Of a stretch of 64,000 nt of DNA, positions 1 through 64,000 are shown in pieces (position 1 is the stretch's first letter; every line of letters starts with the position of its first letter). Source of the stretch: Bilabrum cf. latius (lineage: Eukaryota); contig OZ237759.1 in the NCBI GenBank assembly GCA_965178125.1, positions 310,001 through 374,000 on the forward strand. Reading direction: 5' to 3'. The notes beneath the pieces were generated by a model. The model had not been told where the DNA came from, made no database searches, and worked only from the letters and a program-made list of their open reading frames with translations. The position numbers and the translations under genes were made by a program.

Positions 1-1
1 A

Positions 2-1030
2 AAACTTAATAACGTTGCCGCCAGCCTTGTTCGTTCTGGTCTTGACGACTTAAGAGTTGCATTAGAAGGAGGAACTGTAAATATGCGTCTACACACTAAG
101 AACGCTGCACTCCAAGTTCCTCTCAGCACCAATTACGCCTACCCATGGGAAAAAACAATTCCTCATGAATTTGTGGGTAATACTGCTTTACTTGCTAATA
201 GCGAAACCGTTGTCAACATTCCCATCATCAGAGAAGACGTTGTTCCCGATATGTTTGTTCCTCATGTTGTGGTCAATCGTGGTGCTGATGATTATGGTCC
301 TGATATAACTCTACCTATTACTCACATAAGTTGCACCGTCGGCAATAAATTCAAACTTCTTGATGATCACAGCACTCGCGATCTTTACGATTTAGCCGTT
401 TCAAATGGTTACGTTGGTAGTTATGCCTAGTTTGCTGGTTTACTACTCAACCCCGCTGAAAGTACCCTTGCCAATTAGGTACTCGCCAATTGGAGCATCT
501 TACCTTTACGCCCCAGTTAGATGCCACTAGATGCCGAATTAATGAGTGGTGTCAAGAAAGAGTTTAGACTCACCAGCCTACAACTCACCATTGCCAACCG
601 CACAGCCAATGCAATCGCAGCCGGCGATTACACCATCCAAATCCCTTTCATGTATGGCGGATACATTGAATTTAAAAATGGACGCATTCAAGCCAAAGAG
701 GTTGTTATTCCAGTAGCCAAAACACTCACCAGCGCTCCTGTGGTCTATCTTGAGGATGACAGCGAACATGCTATTCAAGGCGGACGCGGTGGACGCGGTT
801 GGAAGAAATTCAAGAACTTCGTCAAGAAAGCTACACCATTTGTCCAAAAAGCCAGCAAATTTGTACGCAACCTACCAGGTGTAAACAAGGTCGCTGGTGA
901 TAGTACCGCTCTAGGACAGGTTATGGCTCTTGCGGGGGCTGGAACAACTCACGTTGGCGGTGGGGTTTAGATGGTTGGAGGTCAAGTGATGAGTTCAAGC
1001 TAGGCAGATGCAATGGGAGGTTCTTACTAA
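2..1030 (+). CDS. Virophage major capsid protein, 5'-truncated by the window
   Basis: One frame open from position 2 to TAA 1028-1030 with only TAG interruptions. Sputnik-like MCP motifs LPITHISCTVGNKFKLL, DLYDLAVSNGYVGSYA(Q)FAG, and a Gly-rich C-terminal tail after AIQGG. Confidence 0.85.
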
Positions 1031-1075
1031 TCAATAAATTCATTCTAAATTATATATCTCACTATGTAATATAGA

Positions 1076-2503
1076 ATGTTTGCTGGAAAGCGAAAAAAAG
1101 CCCGTAATTTAAACGAAGTCAGATAGTTGCAACACCTAGTCAAAGCATCTGGTCAAGCCTATCAATCACCCAATGCCCGAACCACAATAATCTCCAAACA
1201 AGGAAAATATATGTACATCCCCAGTTTAAGCGATACCAAACGAGCCGTCTATCGTAACGATAAAAATCAATATATTGTTGCTTTTCGAGGAACAGTTGTC
1301 AGCGATCCTGAGGATCTATTAGACGATGCTCGAATCATTAAAAACACACTTCCTAATGGAAATAGATTTCAACGAGAGAAAAAAAAGGTTGAGGAAATCA
1401 AACAACTTAGCAATGGACAAGTTGTGCTTACTGGACACTCATTAGGAGGTGCTTTAGCCAATTAGATTGGATAGCAATTAGGAATCGAAAGTGTGGGTTG
1501 GAATGCTGGAACAGCCCCTACCGCTCGAAACTTAGTTGGCAACACCATTCGACGATTTGCCACCCAAGGCAAAACCAAAAGTTACAACGTTAGTAGCGAT
1601 CCTATTTCTCTTGGAAATCCTTTTAGCAAACGCATCAATCGCAAAGCTGGTCTAGATCCACACAGTCTTGGAAACTTTGTAATTCAAGGCGGTAAAGCAC
1701 AAACTGATCCCATTATTCGCAAATTCAACTTGTTTAACTTTGCTAAACCACTACTCAAAGTTGCCAATCTTTTAGAATTAGATAATACCTCCAAACAATC
1801 CGTGATTGAACTTAAAGGTTCGCAAACCAATCCCGTTATTTCCTTGTACGCTAGTGATTACGATTTCTTTCAACAACTAACACAAAAAGATATTCCAATG
1901 TTTGTACCACACTTAATCCATCTAGTAGAATTATTGAGTTCCAAAAGTTCTCCCCTTCGACCAGTGGAACTTAAACTAGGTGGCAAACACTACAAACCCA
2001 CAGTCAAAAATCTAAAACAGTTAGAACCCAGAATACAATCTATTATCAGCAAAGACCCTTTTGCCAAACTAGATTTAATCATGTTTGATGGCAAATACTA
2101 CCAAGAAATCACTGTGGTTTACCTATTCGAACCTCTTGCCAATCCCAAGGAAATCCAAACCCAACTACTAAACGATAGTCGGGAATATCGCAAACAAGGA
2201 ATGCGGTACAAAGCAAGTAAACGAGTGATTCAATCCAATAAAGGTACTCTCAAACAACGCCGAGCTGCCCTTAAAACACTCGAAAATCCTAAACTTGCAC
2301 AAATCAATCACACCGCCAACCATTTAGAGGCGTTCTTACGTTTTCCAAACGCAAAGCGTACCTCGCTTCAATGGATAAAACAAGATTTATCCAATGTACT
2401 CACTCGTAAACAACAAGCAGAGGTTAGCAAGTTACTCAATAAAGGAACTAAAGCAAACGTTAAACAAGTTATGGATTTATTAAAGCAATGGAAATTAAGA
2501 TAA
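1076..2503 (+). CDS. Class-3 lipase domain fused to a virophage-type domain (possibly nucleotidyltransferase-like), 475 aa
   Basis: Joins ORFs 1127-1465 and 1493-2503 through TAGs. Lipase motifs IVAFRGT and LTGHSLGGALA; second domain contains GSQ..YASDYDF; VIQGG lies at the junction. Confidence 0.75.
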
Positions 2504-2529
2504 GAAAATAATATAGATTACAATAATAT

Positions 2530-2772
2530 ATGGATATCGATCTTCGAAAGATTAGCCTTAAACGCCTACACGAACTTGTTAAACTCAAGAAACAACAACT
2601 CAAGTAGAGACCCAAATAGAAACTCAGCAACTATAACCTGTTTGTAAAAGAAATGTACCCCGTTATGCGCAAAAAGGACCCCGAGCGATACAAGAACGTC
2701 GGCAATTTTACCAAAGATGCTAGTTCCCACTCGTGGTTTGCCCAGTGGAAAAAAGAAAAGAAAATTGAATAA
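2530..2772 (+). CDS. Small basic protein, HMG-box/YABBY-like, 80 aa
   Basis: ATG 2530 to TAA with 2 TAGs. KLSNYNLFVKEMYPVMRKKDP...FAQWK resembles HMG-box helices. Absent from the supplied ORF track. Confidence 0.55.
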
Positions 2773-2814
2773 TCCTCTGGATACTTACACAGACGAGTGT
2801 GATTTTACAATTAA

Positions 2815-2847
2815 TTCCGTATTAATCGACTTGGTTTTAATACAGAA
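2815..2847. terminator. Conserved 3'-end hairpin (TCCGTATTAA-loop-TTAATAC(A/G)GA family)
   Basis: Imperfect inverted repeat between convergent genes. Related copies at 9352-9384, 15698-15728 and 19163-19195. Confidence 0.5.
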
Positions 2848-2886
2848 ATAAATTAATTTGAGGTTTCAAGATTCAGGATTGAGGAT

Positions 2887-4020
2887 TCAATTACTACAAT
2901 ACAACATGACCTCATTTGGAAACACCCTCTTGTTTGCCATGGCTTCTCGCTTTGGTAGTCGTGCATGTTGTACCTTTTGAAAGAAAGTCTTTAATCTCTC
3001 TATTCGCCTCAATAACTCATCTAAATCTGGAGCATAGTTAACATGATAGGCTACTACCATCTTTTTCAATCCAGTAAAATCACATTGATCCAAGATCGGC
3101 AATTCTGCTCCCTCTATATCCATCTTAACACAATCACAACCCTCGATTGCTTTTTTAAAACTAATGGCTGGCACAATCACCCGTTTTCTTCCTCGCACCT
3201 TTCTTAAGGTGGTATGATTCCACTCTGATTTTGCTAGATACAAAGGGATTTCTCGGGTCTCACTATCCGCCACCACCGCTTGGTTAAAACAATTATCGGG
3301 GGTTACAGAATTCTAAACCAATATATTATAATTACCCTCATCTGGTTCATAACTCTTGATTGCTATTCCATGCATCTAACATCTGGCTGTAAATGCACCA
3401 ATATTTGCTCCGATATCACACCACTTCTCCCCTTTCTCCTACTTGAAAAACTGTGTATATTCCATCTTTTTTCCTAACAATTCCTTAATCACCTTGCTAT
3501 CAGTAGTTTGCGGTCTCTGTACCAAATGATGATGATGATTATAAAAAACCAAACTGTATCTAGTTCCTGTGAACGGTGCTGTCCAATGCTCCTAACTGTG
3601 ACCATAAAAGTAAAACGGTTTCCGATTAATATCGATTTGCTATTGAGTTCCATCCTAGTTTTTTACCACTAACTCTCCTCCTTTGTAATTTCCAAAAGCC
3701 ACAATCATGGTTATACCTTTGTTTAGGCTATCTGTATGAGGGGCACACAAAAAGTTTTTGTTGACGGTTATATTGCTGAAACGCAAATTAGGATCAATCT
3801 AGCGCCCCAACTTCACCAGCATTTGATGAATCTCGGGATTCTTAACCATAACAGTACTTGGTTGCCAAGATTTATCTTTAGAAAACATTTTCTAGACCAA
3901 TCCAAAGTTACAAGTTGGTATACTTTTCTTTCCACCTGAAATCTTACGTCTTGTTTTTCCAACTGAAAAGGTAGGAAACTTCCACTGTTCTAAAGCATTA
4001 AATACGCTATCGTAATTCAT
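2887..4020 (-). CDS. 2OG-Fe(II) dioxygenase (TET/JBP-like) fused to FkbM-family methyltransferase, 377 aa
   Basis: Single frame from ATG 4020 to TGA 2887 with TAG readthrough. N-terminal part: NITVNKNFLCAPHTDSLNKG, FGNYKGGELVV, EHWTAPFTGTRYSLVFY (HxD..H..R). C-terminal part: WCDIGANIGAF, SYEPD, VKMDIEGAE. Confidence 0.8.
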
Positions 4021-4059
4021 CTTAATCTTACGTGGCAAATTAAATCTAAGCTAATATAT

Positions 4060-4704
4060 ATGAACGCCAAAAACCAATTATGGTTGCACGTTTTGTCTGT
4101 TGCTCAACAAACCTATCCTCACGATAAAGTTGCCCGTGACAAATACCTTGAATTAATGCGTAAAGAACTACGAATAGAACCCGATCCAGAACCCGAACCC
4201 GAACCCGAACCTGTTCTTGAACCTGATAGCGATTCAGATGAACCTGAGCCTGAACCAGAATCTAGACCTGCCACTCCACCATCTGCACCTAACCCCGAAC
4301 CTGTTCCAAAACCTGAACCTAAACCTGCCATTCCACCATCTGTTGTGGATTTAAGCCCACCTAAATTACAACGAGAGCGATAGGTTTCTTTTGTAATTCC
4401 AGGTTTCGGTGATCCCGATCCTGAACCTGAACCTGAACCCGAACCTGAACCATTTAAAGTCGAAGTGGTTGATAGTGATAAACCCGAATTTCGATGGATG
4501 GTACAAGAGCAGGAAAACGGTGAATGGATCTATTTTGGTGATAAAGGTGCTCTGACTGCCAAAGAAATGGTGGATCGTAAAATGTGCAGTTGGAGACGTG
4601 CTTATTCCCGAGTCCATAGATATCTTAAACAACACCGTCCGGTGTCTGATGGATCTCTCGATCGATGGAAATGGGAGCAAAAATACTACTTAGCACAAAA
4701 CTAA
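4060..4704 (+). CDS. Pro/Glu-rich hypothetical protein, 214 aa
   Basis: ORFs 4060-4383 and 4465-4704 are in one frame across a TAG; contains PEPEPE repeats. Confidence 0.7.
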
Positions 4705-4759
4705 AAACTAAATTGTTACTATTAGTTAATTGTTTAATTAAATAACAGTAATTATCAAC

Positions 4760-5290
4760 TTAAGAACTCTAAGGAAGAACCAAATAGTTGAAAGCATAAT
4801 CCTCATTACCTGCTGCGTTACCGGATAGATGGACTGTAAACTCATCAGTTCCTGCAACCACTTTCAAAAACTCAGTTGCCCCTCCTGTTGGTTCAGTAGT
4901 TGTAGTAATATGAACGTGATCACCTGCAACCACACCTGGGGCTGAAAAGGTCTAGGTTGCCAATGATGAACCACCAGTCCAACTGCCTGATCCATGGGCT
5001 TTAACTGCATTAGTGGAATTAACTGTGCCATTCAGATCAATATTACAATTCTCGCCATCATTGCTAAACAATAATCTCATTCCAGCGGATAGTGCGTTTT
5101 TACCAAATCTAAGCTCATCTGCTTCTGAAAGGATGTAAGGTACTCCTATTGAGCCCTCAAATATAATACTTGAGTTGCCAACTAATACATCGCTTGGACC
5201 TAAAACTGGATTTAAGCGTAAAGTCTTTGTTCCCATTCTTGGGGCATAAAGGTTATTGGTATTTCTTGGGTCGGTCAGTATATCTGCCAT
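4760..5290 (-). CDS. Hypothetical beta-rich protein, possible virion fibre/decoration protein, 176 aa
   Basis: ORF 4952-5290 extends through TAGs to TAA at 4760; Gly/Ser/Thr-rich. Confidence 0.6.
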
Positions 5291-5349
5291 TATACTCTAA
5301 ACCAGAAAATATTCCACCAATTCTTATTTTTTTTCTTATCTAGAGTATA

Positions 5350-5979
5350 ATGGAGATAAATACTTCCGTAGTAGCCACAGGATTAGTTTCTTTAGGCTAT
5401 CATGCCGTTTGGTATCTTTATAAATATGTATTTGAACGCCCTCTTGATCAACGTAAAAAGCTAGTGCTCTTAATTCCCAGCAAATGTGGTAAGAGTTAGC
5501 TATGCAAGACGCTTCAATCACGCAACAAGAATCTTAGATTAGTTGATCTTGATGAATGTGTCAAAGCATCAGTATTTGGCAACGCTACCGAACAATTAAA
5601 ATTAGCTTGGGGTGAACAACACCAAGATAAAGGGGTAAGTGCCGATATCCGGCGTAAGTTTGTGCTTCAAGCAATTGAAGATGTAAAACGTGAATGGTTG
5701 ATCAACAAGGATCGTAAGGCGATATTCGTAACTAGTGATGTAGATGTAGCCCTCGAACGCTTTAAGCGAACAAGTGTCTGTGTTGCCATTCCAAGCAAAC
5801 GCTATTCTGAACAAATCAGAAAACAACTCAGTGATTCTGATAAACAAGTATTCGATCACTCCAGAGAGCAATTTCGCCAGTTTGAGTTTGGTGGTGATGA
5901 ATACGTAACTTTCGACAGCATTGGACAACTAGCCTCCGAGGTTATGGTTACCTATCGATCACTCAAACACGCTGTCTAA
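5350..5979 (+). CDS. Hypothetical protein with N-terminal hydrophobic segment and degenerate P-loop, 209 aa
   Basis: ATG 5350, one TAG. LVLLIPSKCGKS(Q)L followed by LVDLDE resembles a nucleotide-kinase P-loop. Confidence 0.6.
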
Positions 5980-6023
5980 ACTAAAAACTATACTCTAGAA
6001 ATAAAATTACTACTATTTCATAT

Positions 6024-6398
6024 ATGTATCAAAATGATATAGTAATAATAAAGAAAAGTCCCATTGCTGGTTATGGAGTATTTGCTAAACATAGCATCCC
6101 TAAAGGCACACCTATTGCTTATTTCTTTGGAATTGAAATGAGCACTGCTGATATTCGACTCAAATATGGCAACTTTAGATGCTGTTTGCGTAGACCATTC
6201 CGCAAATGGATCTGTTCCAGAGAACTACCACACATTATTAACTTTGTAAATGGAGTGGGCTTTGGTAAGAGTGCCGATATGCAACCTAATTGCGTAATCA
6301 AACAACGATGGCTATTGCCAACTCGGGATATTAAACAAGGCGAAGAACTGCTACTAAAATATCCAAAAGGGTACTTTAAAGACGTTGGATTGGAGTAA
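6024..6398 (+). CDS. Stand-alone SET-domain protein (vSET-like)
   Basis: IKKSPIAGYGVFAKHSIPKGT, INFVN, PNC and RDIKQGEELLLKY motifs. The canonical NH motif reads NG. Confidence 0.85.
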   Translation: MYQNDIVIIKKSPIAGYGVFAKHSIPKGTPIAYFFGIEMSTADIRLKYGNFRCCLRRPFRKWICSRELPHIINFVNGVGFGKSADMQPNCVIKQRWLLPTRDIKQGEELLLKYPKGYFKDVGLE

Positions 6399-7409
6399 TT
6401 AAAACAAGAAGCACTTGCTTTGAGTGACCGCGTATCTATTAATCTTATCTATATAGATCCATCGACTGGATTTAAACTAATCCTCTAAAAGATGAATCTG
6501 TTTTTTGCTTAAACTTAAGTATTTACATAGCATGAATTCGCGGTCTCTCTCGGGCGTCTATCTGTAAATAATATAACTCTAACACTCTCGATGCAACAAA
6601 CGGGTTTTCCGGTAATCACTGGGAGAGTGTGTTACCCATATTACACTCGCTCCGTGACTCCTTCCTTTAACTAATAGGTGTTCCGCAAGAAATAGTGCAC
6701 GATCGAAGAGTTCACCCTCAATATCATCAAACATCAACACACTTGGACGTTCTAGTAATTTGTGCAATCCCGGTGTGAAAGCATACTTTTGACCTGTTTT
6801 CATGGCAACTTTGAGCCTATCCAAGGCTTTCTCACCCTCAATCCTTTGTTCTGGATCCATGCCTTTCTTTGTATGTTTAAACTCAATTACTGCATCTCGA
6901 TATAATCTTGCTGAATCGTCTGGAACAACCAGTTCATGAATTGGGACTTCTATCATTCCTAATTCTTTGAATCGAGATTCCTAGGGTTTTCCGTTTACTA
7001 CTACAATCTACAAGTTTGGATTTAAGTTTCTCATTGTTTGCAATATCTCAATTCCAAGAGTAGTCTTGCCACTTCCAGCCATTCCAAAGTTGTAAATACA
7101 ACAACGAGGACTCTCTTTAGTCATCAAGGGAATGATCTTTCCACTCTAGTTTTTAAATTTGTAGATTTTAAAACCCCTATCTCGTAACTCCTCCCAGTGC
7201 TTTGGTTGATTCTTGACGATTCTAGCCTTGCGTTCGCCGATCTTGTACCTTAGGTAAGCCTAATCTACTGTTTCTTCTTCTGAGTCTTCAGAATCGCTGT
7301 CGCTTACGTTTTCATAAACTTTCGGCATGAAATAAATCACCTTTCCATCTCCGTAAAGTGAATATGCTATTGGATTACTGTTTTCCTATTTCATGGTACT
7401 TAAACTCAT
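6399..7409 (-). CDS. FtsK/HerA-family genome-packaging ATPase, 336 aa
   Basis: ATG 7409 to TAA 6399 with TAG readthrough. Walker A GMAGSGKTT, Walker B VLMFDDIE, and KGRSHGASVIWVTH motif. Confidence 0.9.
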
Positions 7410-7451
7410 ATATATAGACGTACATGAGAAATTATTTCTTGCCAAGTATAT

Positions 7452-8888
7452 ATGAGTAGTAATATCTCTACACAAGAACAAGAGCGTTTGATGCTCCTTA
7501 AACTATTACAACAAAGTATCGCTGGTTCTGCAGGAATCGAGTAGGAACGAATCGGTGAACTACAGCAAGATATCTAGGATCGCGTACAAGCCTTTAAACG
7601 TGCCGAGCGAACCAAGAAGTTGCGCCAAGCAGGTTTCCTAAATTAGGATGAAATGCGTGATGATCGCAGGGCAAAAGCCAGAATCAGTACCTTGATGACT
7701 CAATTAGAGCGAGAGGATGATGAAAATATGGGTTCCATGATAAATATAGCCGCCAAAATCGTTGAAACCCTTGGAATGCACGATATTGTTGATCCCAAAT
7801 ACATCGAGTCCCTAAATCGACGAGTTGATGCTTTAGAAGGAGACCGTGGAGGTGCTTTAGCCCAAGTTGCATACGATGAAGCCATGGAATCTGCCAGTCA
7901 AGCTTTACTCAAGAAAGTTCAAGATCCCGAACTCAGACGCCGAGGTACACAAAGTAGTGCAACTGGTGGTCCTTCATCATCTATCAATCCCATTGATCTG
8001 GATGACGGTATCGGACCGGCTAGTGGTGCTGGTCAAGGTGGAGACGATGTTGGTAAAGATGGAGGTGGAGATGATGATGATGATGATAGTGCAGATGATG
8101 ATACCCAATATGTTGATGGAGCAAGCTTTTTCTCAAATAGCAACACCCAACAGTCTAAAGCACCAACAGAATCCTCTAATCGTTAGGGCATATACAGACC
8201 AAGTATTGCATCACCTACCAAATCCAAAGCTCTTAGGGCAAAATCCAGGATTCCAATTAAACCAAAAGCCAAATCCAAACGGAAAATTAAAGTATCCGCT
8301 AAAGCACGTGCTAGTGCCGAACAAGGCAGCGCCGAAGGCAAAGCAGCTGCTCAAGGCGCAAGTGAGAGCGCAAGTGGTTCTGCAAGTGGTGCAAGTGGTG
8401 CAAGTGGTTCTAGTGAAGGTGCAAGTGGTGCTGCAAGTGGTTCTGCAAGTGGTGAGGTTAAAGGCAGAGGTGCTAAGCAACCAAGCAAGAAAAACTCCAG
8501 CAAACCCGATTCCATCCAGAAACGTGCCATGCAACTCGCTGGTGCTAAACGCCGTGCATACGTGAACGCCACACAAGGCGAAGCTTTACGAGATGCGTAT
8601 AATGTAATTAAAGGAGGCAAACCTTAGTTTCCTGTTGCTCAAGATAAACAAGCAAGTAATTTGAAAGGCGGAGGCTTACTGCAAGAGGTTGGTAAACTAG
8701 CTTTTGATGGTTTAGTAGCTGGACCACTACGCAAAGTAATTGGTGATAAGGGATTAAAAGCAGTTGCTCCAAAAGCACACAGGAGGATCAATGCTAATGA
8801 ACGCCGATCTGGCAAGCAAGGTTAGAAAGCATAGGATGAGCAATTACTATTAGATCGATTAAGACGTCGAAGACGTGCTAATGGATGA
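7452..8888 (+). CDS. Low-complexity coiled-coil/acidic/basic protein, possible virion core protein, 478 aa
   Basis: One frame from ATG 7452 to TGA 8888 with only TAG interruptions; poly-Asp tract, GASG repeats, IKGG and LKGG motifs. Confidence 0.7.
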
Positions 8889-8925
8889 GTTATGTTAAAA
8901 ATAATAATATATAGAGAAATCATAT

Positions 8926-9336
8926 ATGTCAGATATTAATGGCGAACAATGTCGTATTTGGAGGTATAAAGGTAGACTCCATAGAGTTGGCGGTCCAGCA
9001 ATTGAATTTGTCAACGGTAGAAAGGAATGGTGGTCTCACGGAATACGCCACCGAGCAGATGGTCCTGCTATTATCAACCCTGATGGCTCTGAGTATTGGT
9101 ATAAGGAAGGAAAACGCCATAGAAAAGACGGACCTGCATCCACAGATTCAGAAGGTACTAAAATATGGTACTGGCATGACGTACGCCATAGAAAAGATGG
9201 ACCAGCGTGTATTTATCCCAATGGAGCCCAAGTCTGGATGTTCAAAGGAAAACGCCATAGGGAAGATGGACCAGCGTGTATTGGGGCTGATGGTCGAAAG
9301 GAATGGTATATTCATGGAGAAGAACAAGATGTCTAA
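8926..9336 (+). CDS. MORN-variant/YwqK-like repeat protein (HRxDGPA repeats)
   Basis: About five repeats of W..G.RHR.DGPA, a repeat type common in giant viruses and phages. Confidence 0.8.
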   Translation: MSDINGEQCRIWRYKGRLHRVGGPAIEFVNGRKEWWSHGIRHRADGPAIINPDGSEYWYKEGKRHRKDGPASTDSEGTKIWYWHDVRHRKDGPACIYPNGAQVWMFKGKRHREDGPACIGADGRKEWYIHGEEQDV

Positions 9337-9444
9337 AAATATTTCTGAGAATTCCCTATTAATATCAATTAAATTAATACGGAATTATTCGCAAAATCAC
9401 AGTTGTCTGTGTACTTATATAGAGAGAATTTCATCTCCTCACGA

Positions 9445-9978
9445 TTACGGGTTCTATTTTACGAATTGTAGCACTCCATTTTTGTACCATGTTCTAGTTA
9501 TTTCGCTATTCTGAGTTTCAATAACAGCTGGTCCATTTTCTCTGTGTAATTGACCTTTTTTGTACCACTTTAATTTTGATCCGCCAAGATTAGATTCTAA
9601 ATATGCTGGTAGATCATTTTCTCTGTGTAATTCACCATCTTTATGCCACATCTCTACAAAATCTCCCTTAACTGATGGTAAATCATCAATTGAATGTAAT
9701 TTACCATTCACGGCTGTCATTCTATTTGTACCCGTTCCCTCCGGGCGGTTTGTTATAACCGTAACTAATTCAGGTCCATTCGTCTGTACAATAAAATCAG
9801 GTAACTCCTCCTAATAAGGTTGTTGCTGAGTTTGTCCTGGAATCTCATATCTACAAACTGGACATTTATTTCCACTCAAAGATTTATGGCACTCCTTACA
9901 AACCGTGCCGTCTTTACAACATCCAGTATGAACATACTTCCAATCATTTATATCCTTTAAACAAATACAACATTGCAT
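9445..9978 (-). CDS. RING-finger plus HRxxGPA-repeat protein, 177 aa
   Basis: ATG 9978. CCICL..HTGCC..VCKEC..KCPVCR followed by LHRENDLPA and LHRENGPA repeats. Ends at TAA 9445. Confidence 0.75.
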
Positions 9979-10038
9979 TATACTTAATAATAGTATTTTT
10001 TTAACTCACTGCCAGATCAAAATATCTAAGAAAGAGTA

Positions 10039-11244
10039 ATGAACAACATTACAGATAAATAGCGAGAAATACTGAACGATTTGTACTATAATAAAAAGAG
10101 TTTTCTTGGGCGCGATCGCTTTTGGAAACTTGCTTTGGATAACGGTGTAGATCTACCACGACGAACCGTCTACTCTTGGCTGAGTAATCAAGAGGTGTAT
10201 CAAATGCAAAAGCCAACACGCCAAGCCAAAAGCATCAAATCTACTCGATCCAAAGCACCATTCAACAAACTACAAATAGATTTAGTTGATATGAGTAGTA
10301 GCACAACTGCAAGAGGAGCAAATTGGTTACTAACTGCCATTGATGCCTATACCCGAAAAGCATACGCTTTGCCAATGCCCAATAAAAATGAAAAGACTGT
10401 TCTTGATAGTTTAGACCTATTGCTGGATGAATTACCCAAATTACCCAAATCCATCTAGAGCGATAACGGTTCAGAGTTTATCAACAAGAAATTTAAAGCC
10501 CGTTTAAAATCCTTGAAAATTAAACAGATCTTGAGTACTGCAGGAAAGCCTTAGACCAATGGACTCGTTGAAAGATTCAATGGCACACTCAAACGATTTA
10601 TTAAAAGCGATTTACTGAGCACAGGCGAAAATGATTGGGATGTTAACTTGCCATTATATCTCAAAGCATACAATTCCACTCCACAAACTACCACGGGTAA
10701 AGCACCTGATAAATTGGTTGAGGAATGGAAACAATCAAATATGAAAGAGGCTCCTGAAATCAAACAAGCATCCAAGCAAGATTTGGCAACCCAGCAATTC
10801 AAGATTGGCGATCAGGTACGAATTAAATTAGTCTAGAACCAAAACTAGAAACGTGCGGAAAATTGGTCCAAGGATTTATACCAGGTTGCCGAGGTGTTTA
10901 AGCCACGATAGCCTTGGAGTCCTTTCCAGTATCAAGTTAAGGATAGCCAGGGAGGCTTACTTAAAACCAAGTATGGCAACGAGGATTTGCAACAAATCAA
11001 TGCGGTGGAAAACAAGAGTAAATTAGCGGAGCGATTTGAACTTAGTAGCATTACACGTCCCAGTGTCCGAGATGGCGAATAGGGATACATTGTTAGATAC
11101 AAAGGATACTCTAAACCGGAATGGAATAGCCTGAAAAATTTGGAATTGGATGTACCAAAAATGGTACGGCTATTTGATCGCAAACACAATGTGGTTTGGA
11201 AAAAAGACAAGAAAGACAAATGGACATTCTCATGGAAAAAATAA
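10039..11244 (+). CDS. Retroviral-type (rve) DDE integrase with C-terminal SH3-like domain and chromodomain, 401 aa
   Basis: LQIDLVD, I(Q)SDNGSEF, KP(Q)TNGLVERFNGTLK, FKIGDQVRI, NWSKDLYQV, YIVRYKGYSKPEW. Confidence 0.93.
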
Positions 11245-11314
11245 CTGAATATCATTTATACATTAAATCATTTACATTAAAAATGATTTAAGGCTAATTT
11301 ACAAAGTTATATAT

Positions 11315-11629
11315 ATGGAATTAACTTTTGAAAACTTACTCAAAACACCAATTAATGAATGGGATAAGGAAAACATTGAGAATCGATTGAAAATACTTGG
11401 CGAACTTATTAATAGACATGGATACCATCCACGGTTTCGAGAGAGTCTGGAAGTTTTGTGCTACTTAATAGAAGTAAAATGTTATGGATGCAATGATATT
11501 AACTGTTATCATATTGATCTAAATCCTGGAAAAAAAGTCATAAACCCTGAATATCAGCAACTAAAGGAATTACTGGCGAAATTTTACAATCATAAATATA
11601 GTTGTCAACGTAAACTAGAAGATTTTTAA
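11315..11629 (+). CDS. Hypothetical protein, 104 aa
   Basis: ATG about 12 nt after the repeat; ends TAA; contains a CYGCNDINCYH cluster. Confidence 0.65.
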   Translation: MELTFENLLKTPINEWDKENIENRLKILGELINRHGYHPRFRESLEVLCYLIEVKCYGCNDINCYHIDLNPGKKVINPEYQQLKELLAKFYNHKYSCQRKLEDF

Positions 11630-11977
11630 ATCACCCCACACAAGAAACAATTAATCAAAGATTCTTTGTCCAATGGTTTAATTGATAACATCAAGAATGA
11701 TTGGGTAATGAATTTGAATGTATCATCATTCAAAAGAACAGGTGCTTAGCTGGGAATATCACCATGTTTACTTGCTGGAGGTGGTGGTAATTGCACATTT
11801 TTTATTACATCGCTCATGCGCAAACTAACACCCCTAGAATATCTAAGATTGCAGGGATTTCCTCCAGATTTTAAAATTTGCGTTAGTAGAGCACAGACAT
11901 ATAAACAGGTTGGAAATGCAATGTCGGTTAATGTGGTGTGTTTTATTCTAAAAAGCATGCTGATGGGATTGAAATGA
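11630..11977 (+). pseudogene. C-terminal fragment of a C5-cytosine DNA methyltransferase (TRD, motifs IX-X)
   Basis: ISPCLLA..MRKLTPLEYLRLQGFPPDF..TYKQVGNAMSVNVV. Motifs I-VIII are absent. In frame with the upstream ORF after its TAA; possible ATG at 11708. Confidence 0.8.
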
Positions 11978-21902: not shown

Positions 21903-22257
21903 ACGGAATAGAACAGTGAGTGATGGTAGGTGGGTATCCACTGGGCGTGTGTGGTAGTGGGATGTGCAGAGGACTGGCAGAGGTCTTGCATCACGCGCCG
22001 TGCACGTGCCTCCCCGCACCCAGCGTGAAACCCCCAGAGAAGTAAATTATATCCATTCGGGAAATCAGGGGAACCATGGGGAATCACGGGGAATCCACTG
22101 GAACATGGGAGAATCTGTTCGTGACCAGCAACACTCACTCCCGGACCATCTCCCTCCCGAATTATCACGTACAGAATAACCCAGTCAGAAATTTAGACTC
22201 TTGTACGTTTTATGGAAAGTAACCCTTTTAATTAAAAGTAAAATCCCCGATATTCTA

Positions 22258-22315
22258 CTCTCGCAGTCCATGTGAAACCCCCTGTATACAGGGGGTTTCA
22301 CATGGACTGCGAGAG
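22258..22315. repeat. Perfect 58-bp palindrome at the presumed right end of the element
   Basis: CTCTCGCAGTCCATGTGAAACCCCCTGTA|TACAGGGGGTTTCACATGGACTGCGAGAG, with no spacer and no mismatch. Confidence 0.97.
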
Positions 22316-49300: not shown

Positions 49301-52300
49301 AGCTAGACCCAAAGCCGCCTCCGGACACCGCCAAACACGGCAGCTGCACGCTGTACGACACGGACTCGGGATCCACCGCCAGCAGCCAGGTGCCGCCCTC
49401 GCTGCCCGGCCGCTGGCCCCGGAGAGTGGCGGCCAGGCGCTGAGCCACGGCGCCGGCGGATCGCGCCCGCTACTGCAGGTCGTTAGCATCGGTTCCGTCG
49501 TTCCTGACCGGGAACAGTCCAGCACGTATGGAGACGCGCATCGGGAGGGTATCCGCCGGCTCGCACAGTGTGCTGTTCCATGGGTTGTCCCTGTCATGCT
49601 TCTAGCCATCTGCAGGCTCCACAGCCACTCGCTCAACGGATATACGCCAGGTTCGGGTATCGTCCACGTCCCCGCCCAAATCACGCAAGTCATCTAATAG
49701 ATCTTGCTCGAGCCAGGCCAGCTGATCGCGGCTGGGCCGCGGGTAAGCAAGCCCTGGAGCCGCATTGACCGGGCTGAAATCACCTGCCACCTGGGCTGGA
49801 AGCCAATTGTTGCGGTCAAACAGGAGATCGAATGCCAGCTGCGCGCGCCCCACGATCTCTCGTTCGGCCCAAGTGGCGGAATAAGATGGTAAACCGACTG
49901 ATGCTCCCTTGGGTGGGTCCGCCATGCACCGCATGGCGGTGGCTGTCAGTCCATTCCTGTCGTACTTCGGCCAGCGCTGGTCCGGTGTACCACTACTGGG
50001 TACAAGAGGTACCACGGCCGGTGCTTTCGCAAGCCGATCCACTTGCAGCAGCTCGTCCGATTGGCGCAGCCGAGGGTGACCCAGCCACTCGCCGTACCAC
50101 ACCCGCACCACGCTCGCCAACTGCTCCCAAGCACCATTCGACTGCTCTAGGCTACTGTCCACGGGAAGATGACCGACGCTATCGCATCGTGCAACGCATA
50201 CGACCCTTCCTGCAAAATTTCCTTTTAGACTAGATCGGTGGCAGATCCAGCGGCCGTTCCGCAAGGCCGGCAGAGACATATCTGCAGAAGGAGGAAACAC
50301 CCGAGATGTGAGAGAGCCGCGGTACACTGCGAACGGGCCTGACAGAACCGACTGCCGTACCTACAGCCCCTCGTCCCCTGGAACGGGGATGTACAGCCCA
50401 GTCGATTTGCGGGGGGCCCGGAACGAAGTATAGTTGGCCCGCACGTTCGCTGGCGTACCCTCGGGGATGGGATACCTGCCCCGGTCACCGGGGAAAATGA
50501 AGATCTTTGAGACACCACCGACCTTCCACACGTACATTGATTGATACCTGTCTACTCCACCGATCGACAGCGCCTTACTGTTCTGAGAAGCCGGCAGGTC
50601 GGTCGGCATCAGGTCCACGTTCCACATGGAGTGGTCCACATCGTAGGCCACCGCGCACCCCAGCCTAGCCCGAGGGAACAGCCCACTCACCGCATCCGTC
50701 CTGCTGTACTGCTCCAGCAGCTGCGCCAGGCTGGGCGTGGAGTTCCACGAGGCCATGCCCACGTCGGGGGTGCAGTTACGGCCCTGGACGCACCAGGGGT
50801 CGTCCAGCAGCACCAGCCCTGTGCGGTGCATGTTCGGGTACTTATTGTTGCCATGGTACACGTATCTCGTGCAGTCGAAGCTGCGGCCGGATGTACCAGT
50901 ATTGTTGCGATCATTCCAAAGGATATCACTAGGGGCGTTGATCTACAGCGCCAGCACGTGCGCCCGGTTGACCCTCCACTGGTAGTCGGGGCTATCCCCC
51001 ACGATGGGGGTCCCGGGGGTGATGGGAAGCACGGCCACTGTCCCGGGCGGGTAAAAGCTAGATAGGCTCTAGTGCCATCTTGGCGTGGGCCTGGTGGCGC
51101 GCACCGTTTGGCGCTGCCTCAGGTCGACTGTGCCCCGGCTGCAGGCCCACACCCAGAATGTGCGGTAGGGGGGCTGGAAGGATGGGTCCGGCCTGCTCGT
51201 GGAATGGAACGAGTCGAGATTGCTGCCTGCATACTCGTCACACTGATTAGTCTGAGAGTCAGTGTCATCGCCGCCTGCGTTACCCTGCGTGAGCTCTGTA
51301 GTATGAGAGGGCCACCTTTGCTTGGGGGGCCACACGGTGAGCTGCCTGCAGACGTCGTTGCCCTCGATGGTGGTGTTCCAGGTGGTGTTGGCGGGGCTGT
51401 ACATGGACCGCGGACACAGCACCACCATGACTTTAAGGCAAAGCTCCATCTGGTTCAGACCCTGACCCGCGTAATTCAGCATCACTGGAATTGCGCTGAG
51501 CGAGCTATCAAAGGTTGGTGCATACCCCATCCTGTATCCCCCACTCGCCACCGTTGGGGTGGTCGGGTACATGAGCGAGCCTTGCTAGTACCCGTTGAAC
51601 TTAAAGAACGGATTCAGGACGGCCAGCCACTGCTCCACTGACCAAGGCTCCGTGGCCCGGCTGGGCAGGCTGAATGCGCTGTCGGCGTCCTGAAATCCCA
51701 GGTGCGCGGGGCGCTGCTGAGGCGAGACCAGCGCGGGCTGCATGGAGGAAAGAGCCGGCGAAGATATGAGTCTCTTCCTAGTGCTTGCAATTTGAAGTCG
51801 ATGTGCAGTACTGCTCGTCCCAAGCGTGCCCGCGCGGTTGCTGGTAGCGAGACCACTGGTGGATTTCCCGGTCGCCACTAAGGAACCGGCCAGCCCAGGC
51901 CCCACGGACCAGCAATAGCGAACATATGCCGCCCTCCAATAGTCCACAGTGTCCCACGATCGGTCCCATGGTCGCCGGGCTAGCTTGCACTGGCCTGATG
52001 AAGGACTGAAGTGATGGACCCGAGCTTTGCTGCTGTCTAGAATCCGGCGGTTCTTGCAGCATTTGTGACATATACCAAGAGCATGTGGTGATTCAGCCAT
52101 GTACCACGTAGCTGCGATAAATATAGGGGTATTATCGCTGCTCCGTGAGTACTCTAATTTAGAGAATTCTGAACATGATTACAAGTAGTCAGCGAAGCAA
52201 GTGACTTACCGTTGCATTGGGACATAACATAATTAGTAGTTGACCTTAAGCTTAAATCTGTTCCAGCCTGTACCGCAAGCTGGGGGTGTCCTCGTTCAAT

Positions 52301-60207: not shown

Positions 60208-60262
60208 AATCGTCACAGAAGGGATTGTGCTGCGAAGCAAAGCGGTCTTTCAATCTGTAGGG

Positions 60263-61188: not shown

Positions 61189-62883
61189 TCATTCATCCTG
61201 GGACTCGCGCAAATAAGCAAACGCCGGCTCGAATTTCTATCCCGGGTATCCCTCCAAAGCACTGGGCGATCCACTATTCAAATACGACCTCCAGATACGT
61301 GATAGCGAACCCTGCTGTCTCAGCTCCAGGTTGAGGTCTGATACTCTCAACATCCTGGCCATGGGCCGCATGTAGGACGTCTCGATGCTCCACAGGTACT
61401 CCCCGCTACCCATGTCCACGAATGCCAGATCGCCCACGCGGTCGCACTCCTCCCCCGTGATGACGAGTGCGCACTTCTGGGCCTTGCCCTGGGTATCCGT
61501 CTTCCAGTCGATGTCTCCGTTCGATTTCGTCTTCACCAGGTTGCAGTCGTCCTGCACCGTCAGAGAGGCCTTGCTGTCGCCCCCCTTCCGGAGCGCCTGC
61601 CCCATGGCCAGCACCTCGGAGTCCCACAGAGTGTCCCCCCTGGCGGCAGGTCGCTTAGCAAGCGCCCTGGGGTCGCAGCGATGCACCGCCCCTTCGATGG
61701 CCGCCTGCAGCGCCGCCGTCTTGCGACCATTGCCCAAAGTCTTATCGTCGTGAGGACTATCGAGGTCCGCCGACCCCGCCGACCACACGATCGCACCTCC
61801 CTGCTGGAACAGGACGGCGTTGCCGTCCCCCTGCAGACGAAGGGTATCTGCACCCGGATCCATCAGCGAGGCAGGCACCCTCCAGATGTACTGCCCGGAG
61901 GCGCTGTCCACGATGGCCAGGTCGCCCTGGGTGTCGCACCCGTCCCCCGTGATGACGAGTGCGCACTTCCCCTCGGTACCCTTGTCCCTCGTGTTGGTTG
62001 CAAACACGTCCTTGCCCCCTCGGTACACCACCAGGTTGCAGTCTCCCTGCATGCGCAGCTCGACCCCCTCGCCCGCTTTCAAGGCATCCCCGGCCCGCAG
62101 CACCTGCCCCGGAGACAGCACGTCGCGGTCGGTCACTTGGTGGTATGACGATTGCAGGGCCCCTGCATCGCATTGCAGACTGTGCACGTCCTCCCGCACC
62201 TCCAGATCGTAGTAAAAGTACCCCGCACGATTCGGAAGGTGCGTCAAATATTCGGTGCTCCATAGCAGCTGCGCGCCTTCCTGAAGGAGAACGGCAACAC
62301 TGTCCCCCTGGACCAGAAACGTGTCGACTTTTGGTGTGAAGACAGAGGATTGCACACGCCAGAGGTACTTACCTGTATCCGTGTCGATGATGGCCAGGTC
62401 TCCATCCGTGCTGCACGATGCATCGGTCAAGATCAACGCACAGTGGTTGGCCTGCTCCGAGCCGTCGGAGTTGCCCGAGTAGAACTAGTCCCCACTGGGA
62501 TGGCCAATACTGTCATACTCTCCATAAACGACCAGCTTGCAGTCAGCCCGGAGCCACACCCTCGTCGGACCCTTGGACAAGGCGTTATCAAGCATGGTCA
62601 TGGCGGAATGTAGAATCTCGCCCCTCCGGAGTCTGTCGCCCTCAGCCGGCTTCCTCGAAGCCAAGGCCTTGACATCGCAAGAGTACGTGTCAATTTTGTC
62701 AATGTTCAGGAGTGCCTCCCACCTGGTGCGGCTATGTTGCCTGCTGCTGGCGCGGACCGAGGCCAACGACGTAGATCTAGAGCCAGCGCTGCGAAGGTGC
62801 TGCTGGCCTGCTGCTCGTCGCCCGTGCACAGTTACCGCCGAGCAGGCGGCGAGAGCTACCAATATTGTAACGATTGATTGCAT
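61189..62883 (-). CDS. Secreted protein with three bulb-type (B-)lectin domains, 564 aa
   Basis: Signal peptide MQSIVTILVALAACSAVTVHG; MQGDCNLVVY, LQGDGNAVLF and VQDDCNLV motifs (QxDxNxVxY family). Confidence 0.85.
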
Positions 62884-62959
62884 CCCTATAGATCTGAGGT
62901 TGGTGCAACCGTTGTGTTACTTCACTGCAGTGGGCGGCAAGGAAGTCGCGAGTGGCCGC

Positions 62960-63270
62960 CGCGCCGCGCCGGCGGCACTGGCAGCGGAACCTTCAAGTTG
63001 GGCTGCGGCGGACGGCGGCCTTGTACGAGCCAAACTTTCGGCTTGGGCCTGGGAAAACTTCGTCCAAGCATTGCATTTATATTCAAACAAGATTTGCCGC
63101 GATGTCAGAGATCACGCCCAAGCGGAACTCTCGGCTCGGGCGCGGTTAAAATTTATAAACACAATCGGCTTGGGCGAACTTGTACCAGATCAATTCAAAA
63201 GTTTGGCTCGTGCACGACCGCCGTTCGCCACTGACAAGGCTCCGCGGCGGCGCCCCGTGGCAGCGGGGGG
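62960..63270. repeat. Host MITE-like repeat with inverted arms
   Basis: Left arm ~63005-63068 and right arm ~63169-63230 are imperfect reverse complements; both resemble 60263-60365. Confidence 0.7.
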
Positions 63271-63407
63271 TGGGGCGACCTGACGCGCACTGCGAGTAAA
63301 TAAATACTCACAAAGTAACGCAACCGGTGGCAGTGGCTGCGCATCTGCGGACGAGTTCTAAAGACAAACTTGTTGATCACATACAGAAAGCCACTGCCCC
63401 GCCATAA

Positions 63408-64000
63408 TCACCGGAGCTTCGCCATGGCCGCCTGGACCGCCCCGGCAGCTCCCTTCTTGCCGTTGCACCTCCCTGCGAGGTAGCTTGTCGCCTTGGCTCC
63501 CAGCAGCCGGATCTCATCCCTGTGGCCCGCCAGCTTGGTGGCCATGCAGGCGACCACCAGGGCAGTGACCCATACGCTCCTGACATCCTCCTTGCTGAGC
63601 CCTCCCGCCCAGGGCGCGGCAGACGGCACATCTGCGAGGATCGCCTTAACCGCTCCCATGTCTCTGACCATGAGGATTGCGCGCAGCTGCTCGTCAGTGG
63701 CCACGAAGGACCCGTCGGCCTGCTGCGCCTGCACCACCTGGTCCAGCGACCTTGCCACCTCCGCTGCACTAGGCCCCCCCGCGGCCCCCTCCTCCGCTTC
63801 CTCCTCCTCGGCCTCCTCGATGGCATCGTCAGTGTCGTCCTCGTCCAGCGCCCCGCCGCGGGACAGCCGGTCCGCGCTGGCCACCGAGCTAAAGTCGCTG
63901 TGGTCACTGCCGGCCTCGGCCACGGCCATGCCGTCGGGGATGGCAGCCGCCCAGCTTCCGCCCAGAGCCATCGAATCCAGCTCTGCACCTGCTCCTGCCC
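63408..64000 (-). CDS. C-terminus of a VWA5A/VIT-VWA-like protein (5' part outside the window)
   Basis: LDQVVQAQQADGSF...VWVTALVVACM..KL..HRDEIRLLGAKATSYL. Confidence 0.7.
   Translation of the reverse strand, partial: AGAGAELDSMALGGSWAAAIPDGMAVAEAGSDHSDFSSVASADRLSRGGALDEDDTDDAIEEAEEEEAEEGAAGGPSAAEVARSLDQVVQAQQADGSFVATDEQLRAILMVRDMGAVKAILADVPSAAPWAGGLSKEDVRSVWVTALVVACMATKLAGHRDEIRLLGAKATSYLAGRCNGKKGAAGAVQAAMAKLR

What the first reader, a model, noticed from the sequence alone, without database searches (positions are those of the whole stretch)
1..64000. UAG appears reassigned to Gln in both the eukaryotic host and its integrated virophage
Seen: most genes are interrupted only by in-frame TAG and end in TAA or TGA. 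TAG sits at Gln positions of family motifs: integrase QSDNGSEF (10456) and PQTNG..ERFN (10552), helicase motif VI QxxxRVR (16769), MTase ENPQTG (19635) and host OXNAD1 FKPGQW (45861). Host frames of 7.5 kb (symplekin) and 8.9 kb are open apart from TAG. Established: UAG=Gln with UAA kept as stop (NCBI table 15 logic) is rare in nuclear genomes, with Iotanema spirale as one example. Inference: a recoded protist carries a virophage using the same code, which would confine the virus, and presumably its helper giant virus, to recoded hosts. I do not know of a described recoded virophage-host pair.
Basis: partly seen in the sequence, partly recalled or inferred. Interest (0 to 1): 0.93.

Follow-up and report, generated by a model that had tools for sequence, protein, structure and literature searches.

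The report
Virophage and host both read TAG as glutamine
A GC-rich microbial eukaryote and the virophage-like element next to its genes both use the stop codon TAG as a glutamine codon, so this virus lineage probably makes full-length proteins only in cells that decode TAG this way.

Summary
Positions 1 to about 22,300 are a low-GC virophage-like element with a mavirus/Sputnik-type capsid protein, an rve integrase, an SF2 helicase and a tRNA-Met. The rest is GC-rich eukaryotic DNA with symplekin, TAF6 (one spliced GT..AG intron) and an OXNAD1-like gene. In 16 element ORFs (5,513 codons) there are 82 in-frame TAG, 0 TAA and 0 TGA. In 6 host ORFs (9,239 codons) there are 59, 0 and 0. All 25 ORFs tabulated end in TAA or TGA.

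TAG lies on near-invariant Gln columns: OXNAD1 FKPGxW (Q in 142 of 150), helicase motif VI (Q in 44 of 50), integrase PxTNG and TAF6. In a 29-copy host repeat the same codon is CAG 27 times and TAG twice. A log-odds tally over 12 TAG columns puts Gln first (+2.9, next -5.3).

Three metagenome contigs carry an 85%-identical helicase with 16 in-frame TAG, and dN/dS is 0.14, so the element's lineage evolves under this code. A spliced, probably RNA-derived contig set from another study keeps all 9 symplekin TAGs.

No tRNA-Gln(CUA), eRF1, peptide or host identity could be checked, because no genome is held. A precedent exists: Streblomastix viral insertions share the host's TAA/TAG=Gln code.

The parts
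1..22287 (.). Low-GC (about 34-50%) virophage-like element. Its left end lies outside the window (the window opens inside the capsid gene). The right end is approximate.
   Evidence: GC profile. Contigs of run X1 have host-level word depth (11.9) from 22287 rightward and higher depth to the left. Hallmark genes.
2..1030 (+). C-terminal 342 aa of the major capsid protein; 5 in-frame TAG; stop TAA
   Evidence: PF22031 MCP_V20_C E 5.9e-12, 45.8 bits against cut-off 27. Mavirus MCP 6g45 E 1.4e-7 and Sputnik V20 3j26 E 3.2e-5.
1076..2503 (+). Lipase-like ORF (GHSLGG); 3 TAG; stop TAA
   Evidence: Lipase_3 E 2.4e-4, just below cut-off (21.4 against 22 bits)
2887..4077 (-). 2OG-Fe(II) oxygenase / FkbM methyltransferase fusion; 9 TAG; stop TGA
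   Evidence: Methyltransf_21 E 4.5e-9 (above cut-off). Tet_JBP E 3.2e-6 (below cut-off).
6399..7481 (-). P-loop NTPase (GMAGSGKTT), candidate packaging ATPase; 8 TAG; stop TAA
   Evidence: Only weak P-loop hits (NB-ARC E 5.6e-4; AAA_10 E 0.017). The fold attempt failed.
10039..11244 (+). rve (retroviral-type) integrase; 7 TAG, including 10552-10554 on the conserved PQ(T/S)xG Gln; stop TAA
   Evidence: PF00665 E 1.1e-16. PDB alignments.
13122..13192 (+). tRNA-Met (anticodon CAT) inside the element. It is not a suppressor.
   Evidence: ARAGORN. Rfam tRNA 48 bits.
15734..18667 (-). SF2 helicase of the Herpes_ori_bp type with an N-terminal extension; 11 TAG, including 16769-16771 on the motif VI Gln; stop TGA
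   Evidence: PF02399 E 2.2e-20. Alignments. 85%-identical metagenome relatives.
19251..19997 (-). Possible C5 DNA methyltransferase; 3 TAG; stop TAA
   Evidence: PF00145 E 0.021, below cut-off. No PDB hit.
23684..31240 (-). Host symplekin-like gene, 2518 codons, 9 TAG, stop TGA
   Evidence: Symplekin_C E 5.4e-8. An 8133-nt contig of run X5 covers 23086-31218 with 0 differences.
31226..34096 (+). Host TAF6 gene, 10 TAG in the unspliced reading frame, stop TGA. Intron 31562-31654 (93 nt, GT..AG).
   Evidence: TAF6_C E 5.2e-22 and TAF E 1e-4. Spliced contig in run X5 (table 5). TAG at 32558 opposite Gln of two solved TAF6.
35860..44691 (+). Host 2943-codon repeat-rich ORF, 22 TAG, stop TGA. In its 66-nt repeat array (37104-39038) the Gln codon is CAG in 27 copies and TAG in 2 (37483, 38011).
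44985..46022 (-). Host OXNAD1-like oxidoreductase (stop-to-stop frame), 4 TAG. TAG at 45861-45863 is in FKPGxW.
   Evidence: 675 homologues at E<=1e-3. Named OXNAD1 relatives. The column is Q in 142 of 150. No Pfam hit at E<=0.01.
46359..52100 (-). Host 1913-codon ORF of no known family, 12 TAG, stop TGA

Best explanation
The window joins a virophage-like element (mavirus/Sputnik-type capsid, rve integrase, SF2 helicase) to nuclear DNA of a GC-rich eukaryote. Both are written in a code where UAG is a glutamine codon and UAA and UGA remain the stops (NCBI table 15 logic).

Shown:
- TAG is frequent in frame, while TAA and TGA are absent in frame and end the genes.
- TAG falls on Gln-invariant columns in host and element proteins.
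- TAG exchanges mainly with CAA and CAG between close relatives.
- The element's genes are under purifying selection while carrying TAG.

Inferred, from what is established for other stop-to-Gln lineages:
- The host has a tRNA-Gln with anticodon CUA and an eRF1 that no longer recognises UAG.
- The element brings no decoder of its own (its only tRNA is Met-CAU). It relies on host translation, so it can make full-length proteins only in cells with this code.
- Any helper giant virus must tolerate read-through at UAG.
For: (1) Frame statistics.
- freeing TAG alone raises ORFs of 300 aa or more from 1 to 9 in the element part, and gives host frames of 2961, 2526 and 1939 aa.
- in-frame TAG/TAA/TGA are 82/0/0 in 5,513 element codons and 59/0/0 in 9,239 host codons. 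Off-frame TAA and TGA are common.
- 25 of 25 ORFs end in TAA or TGA.

(2) Gln-conserved columns.
- OXNAD1 FKPGxW is Q in 142 of 150 homologues.
- Helicase motif VI is Q in 5 of 5 distant database homologues and in 44 of 50 IMG/VR loci that cover it.
- Integrase PxTNG lies opposite PQT/PQS in 4 of 4 PDB alignments shown, which are 2 distinct proteins.
- TAF6 ivXia lies opposite fiQF in 2 of 2.

(3) A log-odds tally over 12 TAG columns gives Q +2.92 and the next best, D, -5.27. The same statistic recovers Q, Y, E, H and K for their own codons.

(4) In the 29-copy host repeat the same codon is CAG 27 times and TAG twice.

(5) Window against metagenome relative L001, two genes: TAG-TAG 14, TAG-CAA 4, TAG-CAG 2, TAG-TAC 2, TAG-ACA 1, TAG-GAG 1. 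The motif VI TAG corresponds to CAA in L001.

(6) L001-L003 have 16 in-frame TAG in a helicase that ends in TGA. dN/dS is 0.136 for the helicase and 0.255 for the neighbouring gene.

(7) Run X5, from another study, has a contig with the TAF6 intron removed (GT..AG, 93 nt). Its 8133-nt contig over symplekin has 0 differences, so all 9 TAGs stand in what is probably RNA.
Against: Some TAG codons face columns that favour other residues:
- TAF6 X56 lies opposite Ser in 3 of 3 solved homologues, and X99 opposite T, T and V.
- Capsid X173 lies opposite Asp in both solved virophage capsids.
- Helicase X612 is H 23, Y 11 and Q 2 of 53, and X773 is E in 10 of 20.
- Two TAG-TAC exchanges were seen.
These columns are variable or sparsely sampled, and most TAG columns carry no information.

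Other limits:
- The 87%-identical database protein P0001 has Q at all 11 sites, but it is simply L001 translated with TAG=Q (1 mismatch). It is circular and was not counted.
- No tRNA(CUA) lies in the window or in L001-L003.
- No genome is held, so the tRNA set, eRF1 and genome-wide inference are untested.
- The tool itself labels X5 'RNA? (probably DNA)'. My reading of it as RNA rests on the spliced contig and on contig ends that coincide with gene ends.
- Only about 15,000 codons were examined. Whether TAG also terminates some genes elsewhere cannot be told.
Confidence: 0.88

Rival explanations
1. TAG is sense but stands for another amino acid (Tyr, Ser, Glu, Asp or His), or is decoded ambiguously by several tRNAs.
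For: TAF6 X56 lies opposite Ser in 3 of 3. Capsid X173 lies opposite Asp in 2 of 2. Helicase X612 is H/Y-rich and X773 E-rich. There are two TAG-TAC exchanges and one TAG-GAG exchange.
Against: Every strongly conserved column hit by TAG is a Gln column. The log-odds tally puts Q 8 natural-log units ahead of the next residue, and Y is not in the top eight. Six of 10 changed TAG pairs are Gln codons, including two-step TAG-CAA. The repeat array has CAG and TAG at one position.
Confidence: 0.04
2. TAG is context-dependent: Gln inside genes but still a stop at some gene ends, as in ambiguous ciliate codes.
For: Nothing in the window speaks for it. It cannot be excluded with 25 ORFs, and ORFs were defined with TAG as sense, so a true TAG terminator followed by a short open tail would be missed.
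Against: 25 of 25 ORFs run to a TAA or TGA. The helicase C-terminus beyond its last TAG is conserved up to a shared TGA in the 85% relatives. TAG lies throughout gene bodies, including close to ends.
Confidence: 0.06
3. The element is dead cargo. Its TAG codons are CAG-to-TAG decay that is harmless only because nothing is expressed, so the virus does not really use the code.
For: TAG makes up a larger share of CAA+CAG+TAG in the element (82 of 347) than in the host (59 of 455).
Against: There is no in-frame TAA or TGA in 5,513 codons. Fourteen of 24 TAG positions are shared with relatives at about 86% nucleotide identity. dN/dS is 0.14 and 0.26. The relatives lie on separate low-GC metagenome contigs with partly different neighbours.
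Confidence: 0.05
4. The TAGs are not translated as such: they are RNA-edited to CAG, or they are sequencing or assembly errors.
For: None found.
Against: Contigs of four runs from three studies match the host part with no listed difference where they cover it. The spliced X5 contig set keeps the TAGs. Independent metagenome contigs carry TAG at the same positions.
Confidence: 0.02

Closest known systems
UAG-only to Gln nuclear codes (NCBI table 15 logic): Iotanema spirale, Protocruzia tuzeti, Hartmannula sinica, Trochilia petrani (PMC11687900, passages read; PMC5304391, search listing only)
   Same: UAG is read as Gln while UAA and UGA stay stops. In-frame UAG sits at conserved Gln positions, and most genes carry at least one.
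   Different: Here the host DNA is 58-69% GC and TGA is the main terminator (6 of 7 host ORFs). The known cases are a fornicate and ciliates. I could not name the host, so whether it belongs to one of these lineages is untested. Long multi-gene DNA with a spliceosomal intron is what the window shows.
Endogenous viral elements of Streblomastix strix that use the host's TAA/TAG=Gln table (Bellas et al. 2023, PMC10120064, passages read)
   Same: An integrated capsid-bearing DNA virus written in the host's variant code, read by those authors as a sign of long association.
   Different: That case is code 6 (both TAA and TAG) and its capsids fall in a Metamonada group of Polinton-like elements. Here only TAG is changed, the capsid is of the virophage (V20/mavirus) type, and close relatives occur on separate metagenome contigs.
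Endogenous mavirus-like virophages of Cafeteria burkhardae, and virophages of Halocafeteria (PMC8547959 and PMC10945749, search listing only; bioRxiv 10.64898/2026.07.28.741278, abstract and passages)
   Same: A low-GC virophage element with an rve integrase inside a higher-GC protist genome. The capsid's best solved relative is mavirus.
   Different: A word search of the Halocafeteria preprint found no mention of codons or translation tables, and its host GC (47%) does not fit this window. Here the element has about 5 in-frame TAG per gene.
Virophage-encoded tRNAs (Paez-Espino et al. 2019, PMC6905037, passage read)
   Same: Metagenomic virophages carry tRNA genes. Met (CAT) is the commonest in one clade, and one ochre suppressor was taken as a hint of recoded hosts.
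   Different: The tRNA here is Met-CAU, not a suppressor. The recoding is shown directly by the coding sequences rather than hinted at by a tRNA.

Membership tests
UAG=Gln nuclear code (table 15 type) | In-frame TAG in conserved genes, with no in-frame TAA or TGA | tested here: met
UAG=Gln nuclear code (table 15 type) | TAG aligns to conserved Gln columns, and Gln is the best-scoring residue overall | tested here: met
   Exceptions at variable columns are listed in the Against line.
UAG=Gln nuclear code (table 15 type) | TAA and TGA serve as terminators; TAG does not | tested here: inconclusive
   25 of 25 ORFs end in TAA or TGA. However, ORFs were defined with TAG as sense and the sample is one window.
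UAG=Gln nuclear code (table 15 type) | Cognate tRNA-Gln(CUA) gene | not testable with these tools
   None in the window. No genome is held.
UAG=Gln nuclear code (table 15 type) | eRF1 altered in its stop-codon recognition region | not testable with these tools
   eRF1 is not in the window, and no genome is held.
Virophage (Sputnik/mavirus-type capsid viruses) | Major capsid protein of the V20 family | tested here: met
   PF22031 above cut-off. 6g45 and 3j26 hits. Only the C-terminal 342 aa lie in the window.
Virophage (Sputnik/mavirus-type capsid viruses) | Penton protein and cysteine protease | tested here: inconclusive
   No family hit among the element ORFs scanned. They may lie left of the window start.
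Virophage (Sputnik/mavirus-type capsid viruses) | FtsK/HerA-type packaging ATPase | tested here: inconclusive
   ORF 6399-7481 has a Walker A motif and only weak P-loop hits. The AlphaFold model has mean pLDDT 37.9 and is unusable. No database homologue at E<=1e-3.
Virophage (Sputnik/mavirus-type capsid viruses) | Dependence on a giant virus | not testable with these tools
   No giant-virus sequence is in the window.
Integrated element in a eukaryotic nuclear genome | Contiguity with nuclear genes that have spliceosomal introns | tested here: met
   TAF6 and symplekin. GT..AG intron spliced in X5. The X1 contig 22287-31999 bridges low-GC DNA and the host gene. Left of 22287 the short contigs break at repeats, so the exact junction rests on the window's own assembly.
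Integrated element in a eukaryotic nuclear genome | Terminal inverted repeats and target-site duplication | tested here: inconclusive
   The left end is outside the window. Internal repeats only were found.

The most novel reading that the evidence does not exclude
A complete three-level system (host, giant virus, virophage) runs on UAG=Gln. The virophage lineage circulates in nature: three metagenome contigs carry the same recoding under purifying selection. It can replicate only in this host lineage, so its helper giant virus must also be written for, or tolerant of, a cell that reads through UAG. That helper would be the first giant-virus system known from a host with a variant code. It would also be a natural case of a genetic code acting as a host-range barrier for eukaryotic DNA viruses.
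Probability: 0.35. Interest if true: 0.85.

Novelty: new member of a known kind. Interest (0 to 1): 0.62.

Why it matters
UAG-only reassignment to Gln is known from few nuclear genomes: a fornicate and some ciliates, according to the passages read. A GC-rich host that terminates mostly at TGA would add a compositionally very different case, which bears on how stop codons get captured.

For virology, a virophage lineage whose genes hold about five in-frame TAG each cannot make its proteins in a standard-code cell, so the code itself limits its host range. A 2026 giant-virus catalogue states that all confirmed giant-virus isolates come from standard-code hosts (PMC13524828, passage). A culturable host with such virophages would therefore make the question 'do giant viruses follow their hosts into variant codes?' directly testable.

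The interest is tempered in three ways. The Streblomastix precedent already shows an integrated virus sharing its host's variant code. The code type itself is known. I also could not identify the host or rule out that its code has already been reported under its name.

Tried and rejected
- The whole genome is not held, so there was no genome-wide codon inference and no tRNA, eRF1 or 18S search.
I gave up that route to a host placement.
- Single-protein scans of IMG/VR with the ATPase and the capsid found no relative.
- A database search with the ATPase found nothing at E<=1e-3.
- PDB sequence searches with the OXNAD1-like and MTase-like proteins found nothing.
- tblastn of the capsid against the phage collection found no match.
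- The AlphaFold model of the ATPase without an alignment was unusable (mean pLDDT 37.9), and no fold search was run.
- P0001's Q at all 11 helicase TAG sites was rejected as evidence once it proved to be a TAG=Q translation of L001.
- Relaxed ARAGORN with introns gave 35 calls, of which only tRNA-Met is credible.
- Sequencing runs: no RNA holder was listed.
- Runs X5-X7 have no cover over 12000-21337. This is no evidence on expression or on presence of the element in those samples.
- X1 word depth is higher on the element (24-36, locally 180-250) than on the host flank (11.9). That hints at several copies, but the tool warns it is not a copy number.
- None of 65 distant IMG/VR helicase loci looks TAG-recoded. 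All are densely coding under the standard code, so the recoded lineage was seen only in the window and in L001-L003.
- Eight paper searches found no report of a recoded virophage or of a GC-rich UAG=Gln eukaryote. Supplementary files could not be opened and may hold such data.

Full report
WHAT THE WINDOW IS. Base composition splits the window in two. Positions 1 to about 23,000 are 34-50% GC and the rest is 54-69% GC.

Under the standard code the low-GC part has one ORF of 300 aa or more. With TAG read as sense it has nine. With TAA freed instead it has one, and with TGA freed it has two.

In the GC-rich part, freeing TAG produces frames of 2961, 2526 and 1939 aa, where the longest standard frame is 1038 aa. 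Freeing TAA changes nothing at the top. Freeing TGA yields many more middling ORFs (50 of 300 aa or more), as expected of GC-rich DNA, but no longer top frame.

GENE CONTENT. The element ORFs read with TAG as sense include:
- the C-terminal 342 aa of a virophage major capsid protein (Pfam MCP_V20_C, E 5.9e-12, above cut-off). Its best solved relatives are the mavirus capsid 6g45 (E 1.4e-7) and Sputnik V20 3j26 (E 3.2e-5);
- an rve integrase (E 1.1e-16);
- a Herpes_ori_bp-type SF2 helicase (E 2.2e-20);
- an FkbM-methyltransferase/2OG-oxygenase fusion, a lipase-like protein and two RING proteins;
- a P-loop protein that may be the packaging ATPase, although it has only weak hits.

A tRNA-Met(CAU) gene lies at 13122-13192.

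The GC-rich part encodes a symplekin-like protein (Symplekin_C, E 5.4e-8) and TAF6 (TAF6_C, E 5.2e-22). It also encodes an OXNAD1-like oxidoreductase with 675 homologues at E<=1e-3, among them named OXNAD1 proteins from Scylla and Balamuthia. Several very long low-complexity ORFs complete the set.

A contig of run X5 lacks 31562-31654, which has GT..AG ends and is 93 nt long. TAF6 therefore has a spliceosomal intron and the host is a eukaryote.

THE CODON PATTERN. All 25 ORFs tabulated contain in-frame TAG: 86 in 18 element ORFs and 60 in 7 host ORFs. They end in TAA (13 element, 1 host) or TGA (5 element, 6 host).

For a cleaner set I dropped four doubtful or unsupported ORFs and added the OXNAD1 frame. 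That leaves 16 element and 6 host ORFs.
- Element, 5,513 codons: in frame TAG 82, TAA 0, TGA 0; off frame TAA 109-193, TGA 97-215.
- Host, 9,239 codons: in frame TAG 59, TAA 0, TGA 0; off frame TAA 19-29, TGA 121-165.

TAG makes up 82 of 347 CAA+CAG+TAG codons in the element and 59 of 455 in the host.

WHICH RESIDUE. I translated TAG as X so that the queries carried no bias.

Columns that point to Gln:
- OXNAD1 FKPGxW is Q in 142 of 150 homologues. The other three TAG columns of that protein are variable or gapped.
- Helicase motif VI (VFxATLRVR) is Q in 5 of 5 distant database homologues. It is also Q in 44 of the 50 IMG/VR loci, out of 65, that cover it.
- Integrase KPxTNG faces PQT or PQS in all 4 PDB alignments shown, which are two distinct proteins.
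- TAF6 ivXia faces fiQF in 2 of 2.

A log-odds tally over the 12 TAG columns with at least 5 homologues gives Gln +2.92. The runner-up is Asp at -5.27, and Tyr is not among the top eight. The same statistic recovers the right residue for Gln, Tyr, Glu, His and Lys codons of the helicase.

Columns that point elsewhere:
- TAF6 X56 faces Ser in 3 of 3, and X99 faces T, T and V.
- Capsid X173 faces Asp in both solved capsids.
- Helicase X612 is H 23, Y 11 and Q 2 of 53, and X773 is E in 10 of 20.
- The TAG before SDNG faces T or H.
These columns are variable or thinly sampled.

EVIDENCE THAT NEEDS NO DISTANT HOMOLOGUES. In the 29-copy, 66-nt repeat of the 2943-codon host ORF, the codon in ...AP(I/T)xEPP... 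is CAG 27 times and TAG twice. The frame then runs on for over 2,000 more codons.

Three metagenome contigs (L001-L003, 36-39% GC) carry the helicase at 85% identity. Each has 16 in-frame TAG and a TGA stop.

Codon by codon, window against L001 over the helicase and the neighbouring gene: TAG-TAG 14, TAG-CAA 4, TAG-CAG 2, TAG-TAC 2, TAG-ACA 1, TAG-GAG 1. The motif VI TAG is CAA in L001.

With TAG counted as Gln, dN/dS is 0.136 for the helicase (dS 0.54) and 0.255 for the neighbour. The lineage therefore evolves under purifying selection while carrying TAG, which argues against decay.

A warning for later readers: the database protein P0001 (87% identical, Q at all 11 sites) is just L001 translated with TAG=Q. 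It is not evidence.

RNA AND INDEPENDENT DATA. Nine runs from four studies hold part of 40000-49999. I laid four of them on 12000-31999.

Run X5, from a different study than the probable source, has an 8133-nt contig covering 23086-31218 with 0 differences, so all nine symplekin TAGs are present. Its contig ends coincide with gene ends, and its TAF6 contig is spliced. I read it as RNA-derived, although the tool marks it 'RNA? (probably DNA)'. If it is RNA, editing of UAG to CAG is excluded for this gene.

WHAT IS INFERRED. No decoder was seen. The element's only tRNA is Met-CAU, and there is no tRNA(CUA) in the window or in L001-L003. No genome is held.

By analogy with other stop-to-Gln lineages, I infer a host tRNA-Gln(CUA) and an eRF1 that is blind to UAG. 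With about five TAG per gene, the element could not make its proteins in a standard-code cell. No giant virus was seen.

COMPARISON WITH WHAT IS KNOWN.
- UAG-only to Gln is reported for Iotanema spirale, Protocruzia tuzeti, Hartmannula sinica and Trochilia petrani (PMC11687900, passages).
- Viral insertions of Streblomastix strix use the host's TAA/TAG=Gln table (PMC10120064, passages).
- Virophage tRNAs, including Met-CAT and one ochre suppressor, are described from metagenomes (PMC6905037, passage).
- A 2026 catalogue reports giant-virus bins that annotate better under variant codes. It also states that all isolates come from standard-code hosts (PMC13524828, passages).
- Eight searches found no recoded virophage and no GC-rich UAG=Gln eukaryote. 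Supplements were closed.
- The Halocafeteria preprint does not fit: its host GC is 47% and a word search of it found no mention of codons.

VERDICT. This is a new example of a known code variant and of a known phenomenon, an integrated virus sharing its host's variant code. To my searches it is the first involving a virophage-type capsid and a UAG-only change.

Noticed in passing
window 13122-13192 (+): A tRNA-Met(CAU) gene sits inside the element (Rfam 48 bits). In this copy the base 3' of the anticodon is T. A high-depth variant contig in run X1 has A at 13157. Contigs over 12600-14600 have much higher word depth (about 180-250) and many variants, as if this segment is far more repeated than the rest of the element.
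   Followed up: partly
window 11241-11290, 11997-12046, 12573-12622, 14039-14088, 14596-14645, 15308-15357, 18650-18700, 18943-18973, 21183-21233: A palindromic motif (TTAAATCATTT, 8-12 nt, AAATGATTTAA) recurs in at least nine intergenic spots between element genes. It may be a transcript-end hairpin or a promoter. From memory, not from a call, it recalls the hairpin rule of mimivirus transcripts.
   Followed up: no
window 15414-15586, 18716-18921, 21705-21909: A 170-200 nt repeat flanks the helicase gene in inverted orientation. It flanks the block 18.7-21.9 kb (MTase-like gene plus a 400-aa ORF of higher GC) in direct orientation, which suggests nested or cassette-like mobile modules. Runs X5 and X7 hold a 390-nt contig at 21854-22243, overlapping the third copy.
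   Followed up: no
window 31562-31654: The TAF6 intron is 93 nt long, has GT..AG ends and has no TAA or TGA in frame. The unspliced gene therefore reads as one open frame under TAG=Gln, and a naive ORF call would add 31 false residues.
   Followed up: yes
window 20023-21225 (-): A 400-aa ORF with 9 TAG and higher GC (50%) than its neighbours has no family hit. Its C-terminal ...GHSHKVQKAFYQEY... looks by eye like a tyrosine-recombinase motif.
   Followed up: no
L001-L003 (metagenome contigs): Relatives of the element share the helicase and the next gene at about 86% nucleotide identity but have partly different neighbours. The lineage looks mosaic. The protein database holds both a full-length TAG=Q translation and many 113-193 aa fragments of the same helicase, evidently made by different gene callers.
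   Followed up: partly
window 9445-9978 (-) and 13356-14036 (-): Two paralogous RING-finger ORFs lie in the element (79-nt stretch 75% identical; zf-C3HC4_3 hits below cut-off). Both carry acidic/Pro-Glu repeats like the ORF at 4060-4704.
   Followed up: no
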